Shown here piece by piece: positions 2,902 through 64,000 of a stretch of 64,000 bases of DNA. Under the pieces are notes generated by a model. The model saw nothing but the letters and a program-made list of their open reading frames with translations, had not been told where the DNA came from and did not search any database. Numbering within the stretch: the stretch's first letter is position 1; every line of letters begins with the position of its first letter. The translations under genes and the position numbers were made by a program. The DNA is from a virus, in the IMG/VR virus record IMGVR_UViG_3300020048_000026, positions 64,001-128,000 of that record. One strand, written 5' to 3'.

Positions 2902-3330
2902 TTATTCTGATAATTTTTTCAATTTTTTTATTCTTTCTTCTCTCATTTTGAGTAATTCGTATTTTTTAAAATCTTTAATTTCAATTTCGTATATGACTGG
3001 CATTTGGATATTATCTCTTGTAAAGAATGTTGTTTTTATGATAAAGTCTCCTGTAGATAATTTATCAAATATTGGAGGTAGTTCAACGACTTTATTAAAT
3101 GTTCCCCAATGTTGTCTTGTTGACCATTGATTTTTTCTTAATTTAGAGATTATTGGATAGTTATTTTTATTAGGATTTACTTCATATTTAACTGTTACCC
3201 AATCGGCTAAAATTTTATCTTTATAAGAAGCGTTTGTTGGTACTACGGGGCAATCGCAAGAACATATTTTAATATTTCTTGAATAATTTCTTGGTTTCCA
3301 TGAAACGTATTCGTGATTTTCTATTCTCAT
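2902..3330 (-). CDS. Hypothetical protein with C-terminal RIKKLKKL tag
   Basis: 142-aa ORF ending REERIKKLKKLSE. Confidence 0.65.
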   Translation of the reverse strand: MRIENHEYVSWKPRNYSRNIKICSCDCPVVPTNASYKDKILADWVTVKYEVNPNKNNYPIISKLRKNQWSTRQHWGTFNKVVELPPIFDKLSTGDFIIKTTFFTRDNIQMPVIYEIEIKDFKKYELLKMREERIKKLKKLSE

Positions 3331-3332
3331 TT

Positions 3333-3560
3333 TTATTCTTCTATTAAATCAAAAACAATTGCTGTGTATGAGAAATAATCTTCCAATTCGTTTATTACAA
3401 ATTTGTCGGAGATTTTGGTATTTTCATCAAAATCAGATATCCATTTTACAATAAGGGAGTGTTCTATATAGATAGCATCTTTAGAATGAAGAGTTTCATC
3501 CCAAATGAAATAAGGTTTATAACCTTTGCTAATTGCGAATTCTATTAATTTTGTTTTCAT
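3333..3560 (-). CDS. Hypothetical protein
   Basis: 75-aa ORF immediately downstream of a TATCTTTG box. Confidence 0.6.
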   Translation of the reverse strand: MKTKLIEFAISKGYKPYFIWDETLHSKDAIYIEHSLIVKWISDFDENTKISDKFVINELEDYFSYTAIVFDLIEE

Positions 3561-3602
3561 TATGCAAAGATAAAGAATATTTTCAGATAAAAAAATTAAT
3601 AT

Positions 3603-60303: not shown

Positions 60304-60593
60304 TACAAGAAATTATATTAGGAATAAATTGGAACATTAAAAATCCAATTTCAGAGGTGATTGGAGATCAATTGATTGTTACAGGTAAAGATGAAAAAAC
60401 AAATTCTGATGTCACAATTACAATTGAAAAATATAAAAGTGTTATAGAATGGTTGGAAAGAGAAGCAAATCTTTATAAAAATCTTTTTGACAATGTTAAA
60501 GGACCAAAATCACATTTTAAAAATTCAATGGAAGTTTATTTAAGAAGACTTCAGATTTTAAGAAAATATTCAGAAAAAGTTAATTTATCTTAA
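60300..60593 (+). CDS. Hypothetical protein
   Basis: 97-aa coupled ORF. Confidence 0.55.
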   Translation: MIQEIILGINWNIKNPISEVIGDQLIVTGKDEKTNSDVTITIEKYKSVIEWLEREANLYKNLFDNVKGPKSHFKNSMEVYLRRLQILRKYSEKVNLS

Positions 60594-63500
60594 TTTTCTT
60601 TTTTAAGTCTTCTAATTCTGTTAGCCACATATCAATTGTTGTAATCTGAGTTATTTTTTCAATTTCTAATTTGATTTTATCATATGATAGTTTTAAGTCT
60701 TCTAGTTTATCCTTAGATAAACTTATGAGTGAAATATTAAGTAGATAGTCATAACTATCTTTATACATTTCAATATTTTTTGCCTCTATTTGCTTAATAA
60801 TACTTTCTTTTGTTTTATTTTCAAATACAATTTCTTTTTTCAATACACAGTTTATAAATTTCATTTTATTTACTGTGTATTTTTTTTGGTCTTCAAGTTT
60901 TTGAAGACTGTTTTTCTTTCTTAAATCATAATAATTAATTCTCAATTCAATAAATTTATCAATAATTTCATATTGGTCCTTATATGAATTTATTTTACCG
61001 TTTTCATCAAATAGATTCATATTATTCATATTTATATATGATTCAAGATTGAATTTTTTTATTATCATTTCGTCTGTTACATTTTGAAGGTTTTCTTCAG
61101 GTAACGATACAATAATATTAACGTCAGTATCAGTACAGTACTTATCATAATCTTTTATGTATTTTTCATCTATTAACTTATTTAAAAATTCATAGTACTT
61201 CTCATTCCAGATTAGTATTGGAAGTTCTAAGATGTTTAGGCGGTTTTTTGGTAGTCTTTTAAATATACCCCTTGATATGTATCTACCGTTATCAATATCG
61301 CTTATAATCTCACCTTTGAAGCCTTTAAACCAAGGTTCCAATACTATATTCTTCTTCGTCTTTTTAATTTTGTTTTCTATATAGTTTATAATATCTATGG
61401 GATTAAATTCTGGTACATAACTACTCCATCCAGTTCCAATACCATCGGAACCGTTAACTAAAACCATTGGTATTATTGGTACATAGTATTTTGGTTCTAC
61501 TGAATATCCATCATCTATTAAATATTCTAAAATTTCATCATCATCTTCTTTAAATATATCTCTTGTTAAAGATGCAAGTTTGGTGAAAATGTATCTACTT
61601 GCAGATGCATCTTTACCACCTTTACCTCTTGTTCCATATTCTCCTTTAGGATTCAATAAATTTATATTATTTGAGCCTGTAAAATCTTGTGCTAAACCAA
61701 TAATTGTACTTTCAAGTGATTGTGGACCATGATGATATGCTGATTGCTCTAAAACTGACCCCATAAGTAATTCAACTTTTACCTCATTTTTAAAATTTCT
61801 TTTGAATAAAGTATAAAGAATTTTTCTTTGTGAAGGTTTTAATCCATCCATAATTGATGGTATGGATCTGATATTATCAGCCATACTAAATTCAATAAAT
61901 TCATTATTGAAAAACAAATCATATGTTTGTTTAGTTTTAAATTTATCTAACTCAACACCAGGTTTATATCCTAATAACCATTCTTTCCTATTTTCAACTC
62001 TTTTTTTATTAAAAGCCAAATCAATCATATCTCTTTCCTTTTTAATATCAGAGGCATTAAATCTTATAAGATGTTTTGCAATATCTTTAAAAAACAATTT
62101 GGCTTCTTTTGGTTCAATAGTACCTAATCCTTTATAATATTTTATAAAATAACCTGATTCTGTATTTTCAGTTTTCCATTTTTTATAATCTGATAGCCTA
62201 TAAAAATATTTTACTTTTGTTCCTTTTTCAATTTTAACAATAGGAGTAATAAACTCATAGATGAAGTCCATTTCTAGTAGTTCGGGCCAGTAAGTATCAA
62301 AGATATTTAGTACAAGTCCTTTAATATGACTACCATCTGTGTCCATATCTGACATAATGACAATTTTACCATACCTTAGTGTTCTTGTTGATGTATATTT
62401 TTTACCAAACTCAAGTCCTAATGCTGATATAATATTTGAAATTTCTTCATTTTCTCTCATTTTTTGTAGAGTTATATCTCTAACATTCAGAGGTTTACCT
62501 TTAAGTGGAAATAAACCAAAGTAATCATTACCTGTTACAGAAAACCCTCTTTTTGCTGTTGATGCTGCTGAATCACCTTCGGTTAAGAACAAATGACATT
62601 TCATATTATCTGGTATTTTTCCAGCTTTGTTAGCATCATCTAATTTGGCAATTCTAACTTTAACTTTTTGACCGTTTTGTGTTGATTTTTTTGCCTCTTG
62701 AAATTCTTTTATTGTTGCAAAATTAACAATATCATTTTTAATTTCTGACGTGGATAGTTTTTTAATGAAATTTTCTGAAACTTCTATATCTTTAATTAAA
62801 TCCCCTACCATTCTTGTCGTCATATTTTCTTTTGTTTGTGTTTCAAAAGAAGGATTAGGTATTCTACAACTAAGAAATAAGAACAAGTGATTTTTTATCA
62901 TTGCTTGTTTAACATTAACGCCTTTGTTTAATTTTTCAATTTTTTCACCTAATAGTTTAACTATTTGATTTGATATATAATTTACGTGTGTACCACCAAC
63001 ATGTGTTGATATACCATTTACCATTGATATTTGTTGAAACATATCATTAGGTGATCTTGCGATTCCAATTTCCCAATTTTCATTTATTTTTTCGTAGAAT
63101 AATTCTTCTTCATCATTTATAAACATTCTCATGTAGTCTTTGAATGTTTTAATAGGAATAAGTATATTGTTATAATATACTTTAACACCTGGACTATAAG
63201 CAGCAATATCTATTGCTCTTTTAAGAAAAATTGATTGAATTTCATCTGTAATTTCAACTAAATCAAATTTTTTGAAATCTGGATAATATGTAATATTTGT
63301 TAAATTTTTTGAAGATTTTGTTATTGATGGTTTTGTTTTTTTATCCATATTATCAGTAAATGTCTGACAATATTTTTTTTTACCATCTGAGGTTTCAATA
63401 GTAAATTTAGTAGAAAATATGTTTGTCAATTTTACTCCAAGTCCATGTGTACCACCAACCATTCTTTGATCATTTTCATCAAAATTTTCTCCTGACATAA

Positions 63501-63870
63501 GATTACCAAATATAAGTTCAGGAACATACATTTTATGTTCTTTATGCATCTCAATTGGAATGCCTGGACCATCATTCTCTATTGATATATGATCTTTTTC
63601 TACATGAATTTTAATATATTTAACTAATCCAGTTCTTATATAGTGATCAGAAGCATTAGTTAATACTTCATCAAATAATTTGATAAATCCTGCATTATAT
63701 TCTACAGTTTTATAATTGAACTTGCTTCCTTTAATCTCGTTTATATCTTCAAATACAAACATTTTGGTTGGTTCTGTATATACATTTCCAATGTACATAC
63801 CTGGCTTCTTAAGTATATGTTCTTTATGTGTGAGTTTTTTATATCGTTCTTCAATAGTTTTTTTAGCCAT
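60580..63870 (-). CDS. Type IIA DNA topoisomerase, single chain (ATPase-TOPRIM and cleavage domains fused)
   Basis: EHIL..P.MYIG, DEVLTNA.D, NDG.GIP, EGDSA, PLKGK, DMDTDGSHI, YYKGLGT, DGLKPSQRK, YHHG, catalytic ASRY. Confidence 0.95.
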   Translation of the reverse strand: MAKKTIEERYKKLTHKEHILKKPGMYIGNVYTEPTKMFVFEDINEIKGSKFNYKTVEYNAGFIKLFDEVLTNASDHYIRTGLVKYIKIHVEKDHISIENDGPGIPIEMHKEHKMYVPELIFGNLMSGENFDENDQRMVGGTHGLGVKLTNIFSTKFTIETSDGKKKYCQTFTDNMDKKTKPSITKSSKNLTNITYYPDFKKFDLVEITDEIQSIFLKRAIDIAAYSPGVKVYYNNILIPIKTFKDYMRMFINDEEELFYEKINENWEIGIARSPNDMFQQISMVNGISTHVGGTHVNYISNQIVKLLGEKIEKLNKGVNVKQAMIKNHLFLFLSCRIPNPSFETQTKENMTTRMVGDLIKDIEVSENFIKKLSTSEIKNDIVNFATIKEFQEAKKSTQNGQKVKVRIAKLDDANKAGKIPDNMKCHLFLTEGDSAASTAKRGFSVTGNDYFGLFPLKGKPLNVRDITLQKMRENEEISNIISALGLEFGKKYTSTRTLRYGKIVIMSDMDTDGSHIKGLVLNIFDTYWPELLEMDFIYEFITPIVKIEKGTKVKYFYRLSDYKKWKTENTESGYFIKYYKGLGTIEPKEAKLFFKDIAKHLIRFNASDIKKERDMIDLAFNKKRVENRKEWLLGYKPGVELDKFKTKQTYDLFFNNEFIEFSMADNIRSIPSIMDGLKPSQRKILYTLFKRNFKNEVKVELLMGSVLEQSAYHHGPQSLESTIIGLAQDFTGSNNINLLNPKGEYGTRGKGGKDASASRYIFTKLASLTRDIFKEDDDEILEYLIDDGYSVEPKYYVPIIPMVLVNGSDGIGTGWSSYVPEFNPIDIINYIENKIKKTKKNIVLEPWFKGFKGEIISDIDNGRYISRGIFKRLPKNRLNILELPILIWNEKYYEFLNKLIDEKYIKDYDKYCTDTDVNIIVSLPEENLQNVTDEMIIKKFNLESYINMNNMNLFDENGKINSYKDQYEIIDKFIELRINYYDLRKKNSLQKLEDQKKYTVNKMKFINCVLKKEIVFENKTKESIIKQIEAKNIEMYKDSYDYLLNISLISLSKDKLEDLKLSYDKIKLEIEKITQITTIDMWLTELEDLKKKIKIN

Positions 63871-64000
63871 TCAATTCTATTTTTTTTAATTTTTCTTTTC
63901 TAATTTGTTTGTAATAATCTGTATCTTCTGCATAAATGTATTGTCTATGACCATATTCACCTAATGATGATAAGTAGATAACTAAAACATCTTTTTCATT
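63863..64000 (-). CDS. Partial hypothetical protein with RKEKLKKI tag
   Basis: Manual translation: ...DYYKQIRKEKLKKIELNG-stop. Confidence 0.55.
   Translation of the reverse strand, partial: NEKDVLVIYLSSLGEYGHRQYIYAEDTDYYKQIRKEKLKKIELNG

What the first reader, a model, noticed from the sequence alone, without database searches (positions are those of the whole stretch)
2902..64000. Second, mutually exclusive C-terminal tag R-K-x-K-L-x-x-(L/I) on about 14 proteins
Seen near the C-terminus of ORFs 2902 (RIKKLKKL), 10895 (RKEKLQKI), 11594 (RKVKLDGI), 18029 (RIEKLKKL), 18208 (RKYKLNKL), 18730 (RKQKLINL), 19456 (RIKKLNKL), 27470 (RKKKLQML), 27991 (RKEKLSKI), 28983 (RKIKLKKI), 42467 (RKDKIKKI), 56493 (RDIKLRKI), 59890 (RKQKLNKL) and 63863 (RKEKLKKI). 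None of these has the KYNL end or the N-terminal F-E motif. The tag is appended even to recognisable domains (DUF6011-like, terminase-like). Inference: a basic amphipathic helix that addresses non-virion accessory proteins to a shared partner or compartment. Together with KYNL it suggests a two-address protein-sorting code.
Basis: partly seen in the sequence, partly recalled or inferred. Interest (0 to 1): 0.75.

Follow-up and report, generated by a model that had tools for sequence, protein, structure and literature searches.

The report
Shared C-terminal helix tag, megaphage proteins
About one protein in eight of this uncultured giant phage, mostly small proteins of unknown function with unrelated folds, ends in the same short helix (R-K-x-K-L-x-K-L/I); it looks like a portable docking label for one common partner that is still unidentified, and I found no published description of it.

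Summary
All 14 listed proteins carry R-x-x-K-[LI]-x-x-[LI] 2-10 residues before the stop. The whole 155-kb record has 27 such hits in 210 called genes, against 0.9 expected from shuffling and 6 internal hits.

The signal is a peptide, not DNA:
- Codon use in the tag equals genome usage.
- Orthologues keep R, K, L, L through synonymous changes.
- No strong match lies out of frame or between genes.

It is portable and lineage-specific:
- It follows unrelated bodies (DUF6011, DUF7448, a terminase-like ATPase piece).
- DUF7448 carries it as a 20-residue add-on only in this lineage, and only those contigs have other tagged genes (17/257 against 0/1789).
- Usage is 21%, 13%, 2% and 0.3% in four related huge-phage records.
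- KYNL-type ends rise and fall with it but never share a protein.

AlphaFold2 models the tag as a helix in both proteins modelled, and its four fixed residues lie on one helical face.

The best reading is a docking helix for a shared partner.

This scan reported the same tag on other DNA (e1-5355300, e1-5347125). I found no paper on it.

The parts
2902..3330 (-). 142-aa ORFan ending ...EERIKKLKKLSE; tag codons 2911-2934
   Evidence: no Pfam or PHROG family
10895..11074 (+). 59-aa CxxC...CxxC protein ending ...KQRKEKLQKIIKK; tag 11039-11062; the stop overlaps the next ATG (ATGA)
11594..11890 (+). 98-aa ORFan ending ...SERKVKLDGIYNSTN; tag 11849-11872; the next gene is convergent
18029..18172 (+). 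47-aa protein ending ...CERIEKLKKLASK; tag 18137-18160
18208..18480 (+). 90-aa ORFan with tag RKYKLNKL and a 10-residue tail; tag 18424-18447; the next gene is convergent
18730..18942 (-). 70-aa ORFan ending ...WLRKQKLINLNEKL; tag 18745-18768
19456..19683 (-). 75-aa ORFan ending ...FERIKKLNKLNENM; tag 19471-19494
27470..27994 (+). 174-aa DUF6011 / phrog_20259 protein. The family profiles end by residue 152 and the tag RKKKLQML follows at 27950-27973. A host-type TATCTTTG box lies 18 nt upstream of the ATG.
27991..28323 (+). 110-aa ORFan ending ...KQRKEKLSKINKNA; tag 28285-28308
28983..29663 (+). 226-aa (GTG start) P-loop fragment resembling the terminase large-subunit ATPase (PHROG 2, E 7.6e-7; Pfam ResIII, E 0.0033); tag RKIKLKKI at 29616-29639
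42431..42802 (+). 123-aa ORF (start uncertain; it overlaps 41722-42492) ending ...LRKDKIKKIENEN; tag 42764-42787
56493..56846 (-). 117-aa conserved phage-only family. The tag RDIKLRKI (56514-56537) is kept in 37 of 41 homologues. AlphaFold2 puts it in helix 96-116.
59890..60303 (+). 137-aa ORFan ending ...VLRKQKLNKLNSL; tag 60268-60291; orthologues in L098, L110 and L119 keep the tag
63863..64000 (-). 3' part of an 80-aa gene (record 127863-128105) ending ...QIRKEKLKKIELNG; tag 63878-63901. It is the last of five consecutive tagged genes upstream of the fused topoisomerase II gene (60580-63870).

Best explanation
The tag is a portable C-terminal docking helix of about 13 residues. Its core is h-R-K-x-K-L-x-K-[LI]-N, followed by a free tail of 0-15 residues. 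This megaphage lineage has added it to many small, soluble, fast-turning-over accessory proteins with unrelated folds.

Shown:
- It is selected as a peptide.
- It is helical in models.
- Its four fixed residues (Arg0, Lys3, Leu4, Leu/Ile7) lie on one face of the helix.
- Arg and Lys are not interchangeable.
- It is not needed for the fold of the domain it follows.
- Its carriers are a different set from the late KYNL/leader class.

Inferred: that face fits into an acidic, hydrophobic groove of one common partner, so many different 'heads' are brought to the same place or machine. The partner is unknown and could be a phage or a host protein.
For: Position and excess:
- 27 C-terminal hits against 0.9 expected, and 6 internal hits.
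- The cross-trained weight matrix gives 26 of its top 28 hits at C-termini.

Peptide level:
- Codon use at Arg, Lys and Leu inside the tag matches genome-wide use (AGA 23, AGG 3, CGA 1, CGT 1).
- Orthologues keep the residues through AGA/CGA/AGG, AAA/AAG and CTA/TTA/ATA changes.
- A nucleotide matrix at 18.3 bits or more finds 21 in-frame gene-end hits, 1 in-frame internal hit and none out of frame or intergenic.

Portability:
- The bodies share no BLASTP similarity except one pair.
- Pfam and PHROGs give DUF6011, DUF7448 and a terminase-like ATPase.
- The two AlphaFold2 bodies differ, one all-beta and one alpha/beta.

Add-on:
- 63 of the 120 best DUF7448 homologues carry a linker plus the tag after the point where canonical members stop.
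- In 10 contigs with a tagged DUF7448, 17 of 257 other genes are tagged. In 62 contigs with an untagged DUF7448, 0 of 1789 are, including six contigs of 25-27% GC.

Specific recognition:
- K-for-R at position 0 and R-for-K at position 3 occur only as shifted readings of true tags. V/M/F at positions 4 or 7 occurs once each.
- Positions 0, 3, 4 and 7 are the most tightly clustered of all 70 four-position sets on a helical wheel.

Helix: residues 127-139 of 141 (block pLDDT 84-93) and residues 96-116 of 117.

Carriers:
- Median length is 117 aa against 169 aa for other genes.
- No membrane-spanning segment in 27 tagged proteins, against 19 in 183 others.
- Copy number varies between relatives, and G002 has a tandem array of 13 tagged genes.
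Against: - No partner was identified and no binding was shown.
- The tools give no complex prediction and no model coordinates, so I could not see whether the helix projects from the body or packs on it.
- pLDDT of the helix in the 117-aa family is only 51-76.
- Part of the abundance in G002 comes from tandem paralogues, that is, common descent rather than repeated acquisition.
- The tag-coding DNA often holds the next gene's start, so a genome-architecture role cannot be fully separated from the peptide role.
Confidence: 0.5

Rival explanations
1. The tag is a shared degron. It hands non-late accessory proteins to a host or phage protease or unfoldase, so that they are removed on schedule.
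For: - The position is C-terminal and exposed.
- The carriers are small accessory proteins that stand behind the late-like promoter far less often than the KYNL class.
Against: - Known C-terminal degrons sit at the very end of the protein. Here 0-15 variable residues follow the tag, and only 2 of 122 tags end the protein.
- A strictly conserved helical face with non-interchangeable Arg and Lys is unusual for a degron.
- I did not search the records for a protease gene.
Confidence: 0.12
2. The tags bind each other, or bind a polyanion such as nucleic acid. The tagged proteins would then co-assemble into oligomers or a condensate rather than dock on one reader protein.
For: - The core is strongly basic and often has acidic flanks: Glu at -2 in 42 of 122 tags and Glu at +9 in 31 of 117.
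- Between 13% and 21% of genes carry it.
Against: - The helix is short and has only two fixed hydrophobic residues.
- Arg and Lys are not interchangeable, which argues for a shaped pocket rather than bulk electrostatics.
- There is no heptad extension in most carriers.
Confidence: 0.1
3. The tag is a membrane-targeting amphipathic helix like those of MinD or FtsA.
For: It is a C-terminal basic helix with Leu/Ile at positions 4 and 7 and often at -1 and +10. The carriers have no membrane-spanning segment of their own.
Against: - Arg0 and Lys3 lie at the centre of the conserved face, not at its edges.
- The hydrophobic content is low.
- The strict distinction between Arg and Lys is not expected for lipid binding.
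Confidence: 0.08
4. The signal is a nucleic-acid or gene-junction feature. The A-rich tag DNA would serve the next gene's translation start, or act as a recombination joint for gene cassettes, and the peptide would be a by-product.
For: - In this record 17 of 23 tagged genes are overlapped or abutted by the next start, against 46 of 135 untagged genes (p = 4e-4).
- The next ATG lies 25-41 nt after the start of the tag in 17 cases.
- Small tagged genes vary in copy number between relatives.
Against: - There are no out-of-frame or intergenic copies of the nucleotide motif.
- Codon use is unbiased and orthologues change codons.
- 4 of 28 tags face a convergent gene and 5 are followed by gaps of more than 30 nt.
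- The overlap excess weakens in G002 (size-matched p = 0.06) and is absent in G001.
Confidence: 0.05
5. The tag is an inherited structural helix. The carriers would be one very fast-diverging family that kept only its C-terminal helix, with no common partner.
For: Tandem paralogue arrays exist in G002, and most carriers are ORFans whose ancestry cannot be traced.
Against: - DUF7448, DUF6011 and the P-loop fragment are independent families.
- DUF7448 folds without the helix in most lineages.
- The two AlphaFold2 bodies have different folds.
Confidence: 0.07

Closest known systems
Encapsulin cargo-loading peptides (C-terminal targeting peptides on ferritin-like and DyP cargo); from established knowledge
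   Same: A short C-terminal peptide, set behind a linker, is added to unrelated proteins and read by one common receptor. It is portable between cargoes.
   Different: Encapsulin peptides are Gly/Ser/Leu/Ile-rich and extended, not a basic helix. Their receptor is an HK97-fold shell. Here the receptor is unknown, and the carriers stand behind the late-like promoter far less often than the KYNL class.
Phage T4 capsid targeting sequence of internal proteins IPI-III and Alt; from established knowledge, and named in earlier notes e1-5790476 and e1-5355300
   Same: It is a phage-encoded short address tag shared by unrelated small proteins.
   Different: The T4 tag is N-terminal, ends in Glu, and is removed by the prohead protease. 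In this phage the KYNL/leader class resembles it, and that class never overlaps the RKxKL class.
Poxvirus ankyrin proteins with a C-terminal PRANC/F-box-like module (and cellular F-box or SOCS-box adaptors); from established knowledge
   Same: A constant C-terminal docking module sits on a large, rapidly diversifying set of variable 'heads' in a big virus, plugging them into one hub. This is the nearest working analogy.
   Different: PRANC is a folded domain of about 40-50 residues that binds Skp1. Here the module is a helix of about 13 residues, there is no sequence similarity, and the host is bacterial.
   Same: It is a basic-plus-hydrophobic C-terminal signal on a phage protein.
   Different: The ClpX signal sits at the extreme C-terminus. 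Here a variable tail of 0-15 residues follows, the pattern is helical, and the spacing is fixed.
Protein import into the chimallivirus phage nucleus (PicA pathway, PMC11087766)
   Same: It is selective routing of phage proteins in a jumbo phage.
   Different: That paper reports no conserved N- or C-terminal signal and a surface 'recognition region' instead. Here there is a clear linear tag, but no evidence for any compartment.

Membership tests
Portable docking or address peptide (short linear motif read by a common partner) | Short, position-specific peptide under amino-acid-level selection | tested here: met
   27 hits against 0.9 expected. Codon use is neutral and orthologues change codons. 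There are no out-of-frame copies.
Portable docking or address peptide (short linear motif read by a common partner) | Found on proteins of unrelated fold and dispensable for the fold | tested here: met
   Carriers include DUF6011, DUF7448 and a P-loop fragment. DUF7448 exists without the tag in 62 loci.
Portable docking or address peptide (short linear motif read by a common partner) | A common reader that binds the peptide | not testable with these tools
   No complex prediction or experiment was available. Phylogenetic profiling gave only weak leads.
T4-type capsid targeting sequence | N-terminal position, ending in Glu and cut by the prohead protease | tested here: not met
   The tag is C-terminal. 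None of the 27 carriers has the MK[YI][LI]KxFE-type leader.
T4-type capsid targeting sequence | Carried by late, virion-packaged proteins | tested here: inconclusive
   The late-like ATATATA[AG] box leads 9 of 27 and 27 of 79 tagged genes, against 19 of 23 and 46 of 57 KYNL genes. Promoter classes are inferred from motifs only.
Encapsulin cargo-loading peptide | C-terminal peptide behind a linker | tested here: met
   In DUF7448 a linker (...KIKxEDPIKEQ) precedes the tag. DSSP shows coil at 123-126 and helix at 127-139.
Encapsulin cargo-loading peptide | Gly/Ser/Leu/Ile-rich consensus, not helical | tested here: not met
   The profile of 122 tags is R-K-x-K-L-x-K-[LI], and it is helical in AlphaFold2 models.
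ClpX C-motif 2 degron | Signal at the extreme C-terminus | tested here: not met
   The tail after the tag is 0-15 residues, most often 3-6. Only 2 of 122 tags end the protein.
MinD/FtsA-type membrane-targeting helix | Continuous hydrophobic face flanked by interchangeable basic residues | tested here: not met
   Arg0 and Lys3 lie within the conserved face, at 0 and 300 degrees between Leu at 40 and 340 degrees. There are no R/K swaps.

The most novel reading that the evidence does not exclude
The RKxKL helix and the leader-plus-KYNL tags are two addresses of one phage-encoded sorting system. The first would send well over a hundred non-late accessory proteins per genome to a phage-built hub or compartment in the infected Bacteroidota cell. 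The second would send late proteins into the capsid. That would be a linear-signal protein-routing code in a bacterial virus.
Probability: 0.15. Interest if true: 0.85.

Novelty: new variant of a known kind. Interest (0 to 1): 0.62.

Why it matters
A single peptide on 13-21% of the genes of a roughly 700-kb phage gives a handle on hundreds of proteins that currently have no annotation. Finding the one reader would say where or on what they act. The tag could also serve as a bait, as a classifier for accessory genes in megaphage metagenomes, and possibly as a portable targeting tag. Jumbo-phage protein routing is known so far only through surface patches, not linear signals (PMC11087766). A clear linear tag would therefore make protein sorting in giant phages directly testable.

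Tried and rejected
- **Composition artefact.** Rejected by shuffling and by six AT-rich phage loci without the tag, which have 0 tagged genes.
- **DNA or RNA motif** (promoter, translation enhancer, recombination site). No out-of-frame or intergenic copies. Codon use is neutral.
- **Link to translational coupling.** The excess of overlapping downstream starts is strong in this record, weak in G002 and absent in G001.
- **Link to the phage's amber-suppressor tRNAs.** TAG stops are enriched among tagged genes here (5/27 against 8/183, p = 0.015), but not in G002 or G001.
- **One paralogous family.** BLASTP finds one related pair among the bodies.
- **Eukaryotic giant virus with a nuclear localisation signal.** I considered this because of the fused topoisomerase II and 25% GC. 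I dropped it because the nearest relatives of that protein are huge phages and the record is in IMG/VR.
- **Fold of DUF7448.** No significant PDB match.
- **Reader by phylogenetic profile** (present in tag-bearing G000, G002 and G001, absent from LR756501). This gave 5 and 53 candidates, dominated by the KYNL/KFNL class, so it is not decisive.
- **Host from bacterial genomes.** There is no relative of the 117-aa family in 185,579 species genomes.
- **Tools and literature.** Four literature searches found no description.

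
Full report
**What the DNA is.** The window is bases 64,001-128,000 of a 154,853-bp IMG/VR virus record that CheckV rates 22% complete, which implies a genome of roughly 700 kb. GC content is 23-32%.

Its fused GyrB-GyrA-type topoisomerase II (window 60580-63870) is 54% identical to that of LR756501, the 735-kb 'Mahaphage'. Al-Shayeb et al. place that clade on Bacteroidetes hosts (PMC7162821). Closer relatives, with topoisomerase 76-79% identical, are IMG/VR fragments.

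Upstream regions show no Shine-Dalgarno sequence. They show two recurrent boxes:
- A Bacteroidota-type TAnnTTTG box 15-30 nt before some starts.
- A late-like ATATATA[AG] box, of which 57-66% of copies lie in the 7% of the record that is intergenic.

- On the whole record, my 210-gene set covers 93% of the DNA. In it, 27 hits lie in the last 25 residues. Shuffling those residues gives 0.9 expected and at most 6. Six hits lie elsewhere in about 48,000 residues.
- A weight matrix trained only on two other phage records places 26 of its top 28 hits in this record within 19 residues of a C-terminus.
- Lys is richer at C-termini (13.8% against 9.1%), but the shuffle keeps that composition.

**Peptide, not nucleic acid.**
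- Inside the tag, Arg is AGA 23, AGG 3, CGA 1 and CGT 1. Leu4 is TTA 17, CTA 4, CTT 2, TTG 2 and CTC 1. Lys is AAA or AAG. All are in genome-wide proportions.
- In three orthologue groups the four fixed residues persist while codons change (AGA/CGA/AGG, AAA/AAG, CTA/TTA/ATA) and the 'x' positions vary.
- A nucleotide matrix of the 24 bases finds, at 18.3 bits or more, 21 in-frame gene-end sites, one in-frame internal site, and none out of frame or intergenic.
- Four of 28 tags face a convergent gene.

**Portable and lineage-specific.** The bodies of the tagged proteins share no BLASTP similarity except one pair. Most have no Pfam or PHROG family. The exceptions are DUF6011/phrog_20259, DUF7448 and a fragment resembling the terminase ATPase.

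DUF7448 is a natural experiment.
- Canonical members (about 120 aa, for example from Clostridium) end at ...NGYYSESVDF. Sixty-three of the 120 best homologues continue with ...KIKxEDPIKEQ-R-[RK]-K-K-L-x-K-[LI].
- Among 80 viral contigs that encode DUF7448, 10 have the tagged form, and there 17 of 257 other genes are tagged.
- In the 62 contigs with the untagged form, none of 1789 genes is tagged. These include six contigs of 25-27% GC.

The 117-aa family of window 56493-56846 keeps the tag in 37 of 41 homologues. It has no relative in bacterial genomes.

Whole-record counts of tagged genes and of KYNL/KFNL-type ends:

| Record | Size | Tagged genes | Share | KYNL/KFNL-type ends |
|---|---|---|---|---|
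| This record (G000) | 155 kb | 27 of 210 | 13% | 23 |
| G002 | 217 kb | 79 of 382 | 21% | 57 |
| G001 | 501 kb | 16 of 785 | 2% | 3 |
| LR756501 | 735 kb | 3 of 1038 | 0.3% | 0 |

The two tags never share a protein (P = 5e-7 in G002).

**Anatomy.** A profile of 122 tags gives h-R-K-x-K-L-x-K-[LI]-N:
- Lys at position 1 in 75% and at position 6 in 64%.
- Lys or Gln at -3, Glu at -2, and a hydrophobic residue or Glu at -1.
- A tail of 0-15 residues, most often 3-6.

Substitutions at the four fixed positions are almost absent. K..K and R..R hits are shifted readings of true tags.

On a helical wheel, positions 0, 3, 4 and 7 fall at 0, 300, 40 and 340 degrees. This is the tightest of all 70 possible four-position sets. 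AlphaFold2 models the tag as a helix in both proteins tried:
- DUF7448 protein: residues 127-139 of 141, mean pLDDT 89.
- 117-aa family: residues 96-116 of 117, mean pLDDT 80 but 51-76 over the helix.

The carriers are small (median 117 aa against 169 aa) and have no membrane-spanning segments.

**Context.** Tagged genes sit in variable islands between conserved genes.
- Five in a row lie upstream of topoisomerase II in this record. Relatives hold other content there.
- A tagged gene of about 60 aa next to the glycosyltransferase gene is present in 0, 1 or 2 copies in different relatives.
- G002 has 13 tandem tagged paralogues.

Promoter motifs separate the two tag classes only loosely.
- The late-like box leads 19 of 23 and 46 of 57 KYNL genes, but 9 of 27 and 27 of 79 RKxKL genes.
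- The host-type box leads 5 of 27 and 15 of 79 RKxKL genes, against 2 of 23 and 1 of 57 KYNL genes.
- Timing is thus suggested, not shown.

**Interpretation.** The best-supported reading is a docking helix that plugs a diversifying library of small accessory proteins into one partner through the Arg0-Lys3-Leu4-Leu7 face.

The following are shown: peptide-level selection, portability, lineage restriction, helical propensity and a one-sided conserved face. The binding itself, the nature of the partner and any compartment are inferred.

The rivals are a degron, self-association or polyanion binding, a membrane anchor, a gene-junction signal and an inherited structural helix. Each fails at least one test made here, as set out under the rival explanations.

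The overlap of the next gene's start with the tail is real in this record (17 of 23 against 46 of 135) but does not replicate well. The simplest explanation is that an unconstrained tail tolerates overlap in tightly packed small-gene arrays.

**Novelty.** I found no paper on this tag. For chimalliviruses, the literature reports that no linear import signal exists (PMC11087766).

Earlier follow-ups in this scan described the same tag on other giant-phage fragments, with 7-24% usage and an unknown reader (e1-5355300, e1-5347125). My independent counts agree. This report adds the DUF7448 add-on experiment, the whole-record gradient, the co-variation with the KYNL class and the helical-face argument.

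**Limits.**
- Gene calls are my own simple longest-ORF set. Small tagged ORFs are missed, so counts are lower bounds.

Noticed in passing
LR756501.1 whole record (loci L150-L187), e.g. record 552104-560463: The 735-kb Mahaphage lacks the RKxKL and KYNL tags but has its own motif, (L)DPYGEE[DNE]W, in 91 of 1038 called proteins. Forty copies lie about 5 residues before the stop. Others lie just after an MIKKF.(I/L)FE-type leader, or occur several times inside large proteins. It looks like a lineage-specific processing or targeting site.
   Followed up: partly
record 132977-133591 (+) = L010:5977-6591, outside the window; protein P0162: This 204-aa acidic helical protein lies inside the KYNL gene array. 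It is 70% and 64% identical in the tag-bearing records G002 and G001 and has no hit in LR756501. It is a weak lead for a scaffold-like partner of one of the tags.
   Followed up: partly
record 10147-10470 (-) = L006, outside the window: This 107-aa protein has two tags in tandem (RQEKLKNL...RKDKIKYI). Its residues 30-68 are 72% identical to residues 91-129 of the 615-aa product of 23096-24943. The 107-aa protein itself gives a weak Pfam Gp23 match (E 0.032).
   Followed up: no
window 67800-68561 equivalent: record 131800-132561 (-), outside the window: This 253-aa protein has a full-strength tag (IKELRTEKLNKLSG) 178 residues before its end. It may be a fusion of a tagged small gene with the gene that followed it.
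   Followed up: no
window 18173-18207: A direct repeat of AAAATAGAGTTTTAGCAC, two copies, fills the 35-nt gap between tagged genes 18029-18172 and 18208-18480.
   Followed up: no
whole record; e.g. window 13659-14353, 6968-7626: K-Y-N-L-stop is often written AAA TAT AAT TTA TGA, which contains the next gene's ATG (ATGA overlap). KYNL genes are overlapped or abutted by the next start in 13 of 18 cases. It is worth checking how far the KYNL end is shaped by the junction.
   Followed up: partly
G002 (IMGVR_UViG_3300029914_000002) 128390-132291 and 1-31000: There are dense arrays of tagged genes of 60-100 aa, including 13 tandem paralogues. Many stand behind host-type TAnnTTTG boxes. Further tag-coding stretches lie in 'gaps' that my ORF caller missed.
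   Followed up: partly
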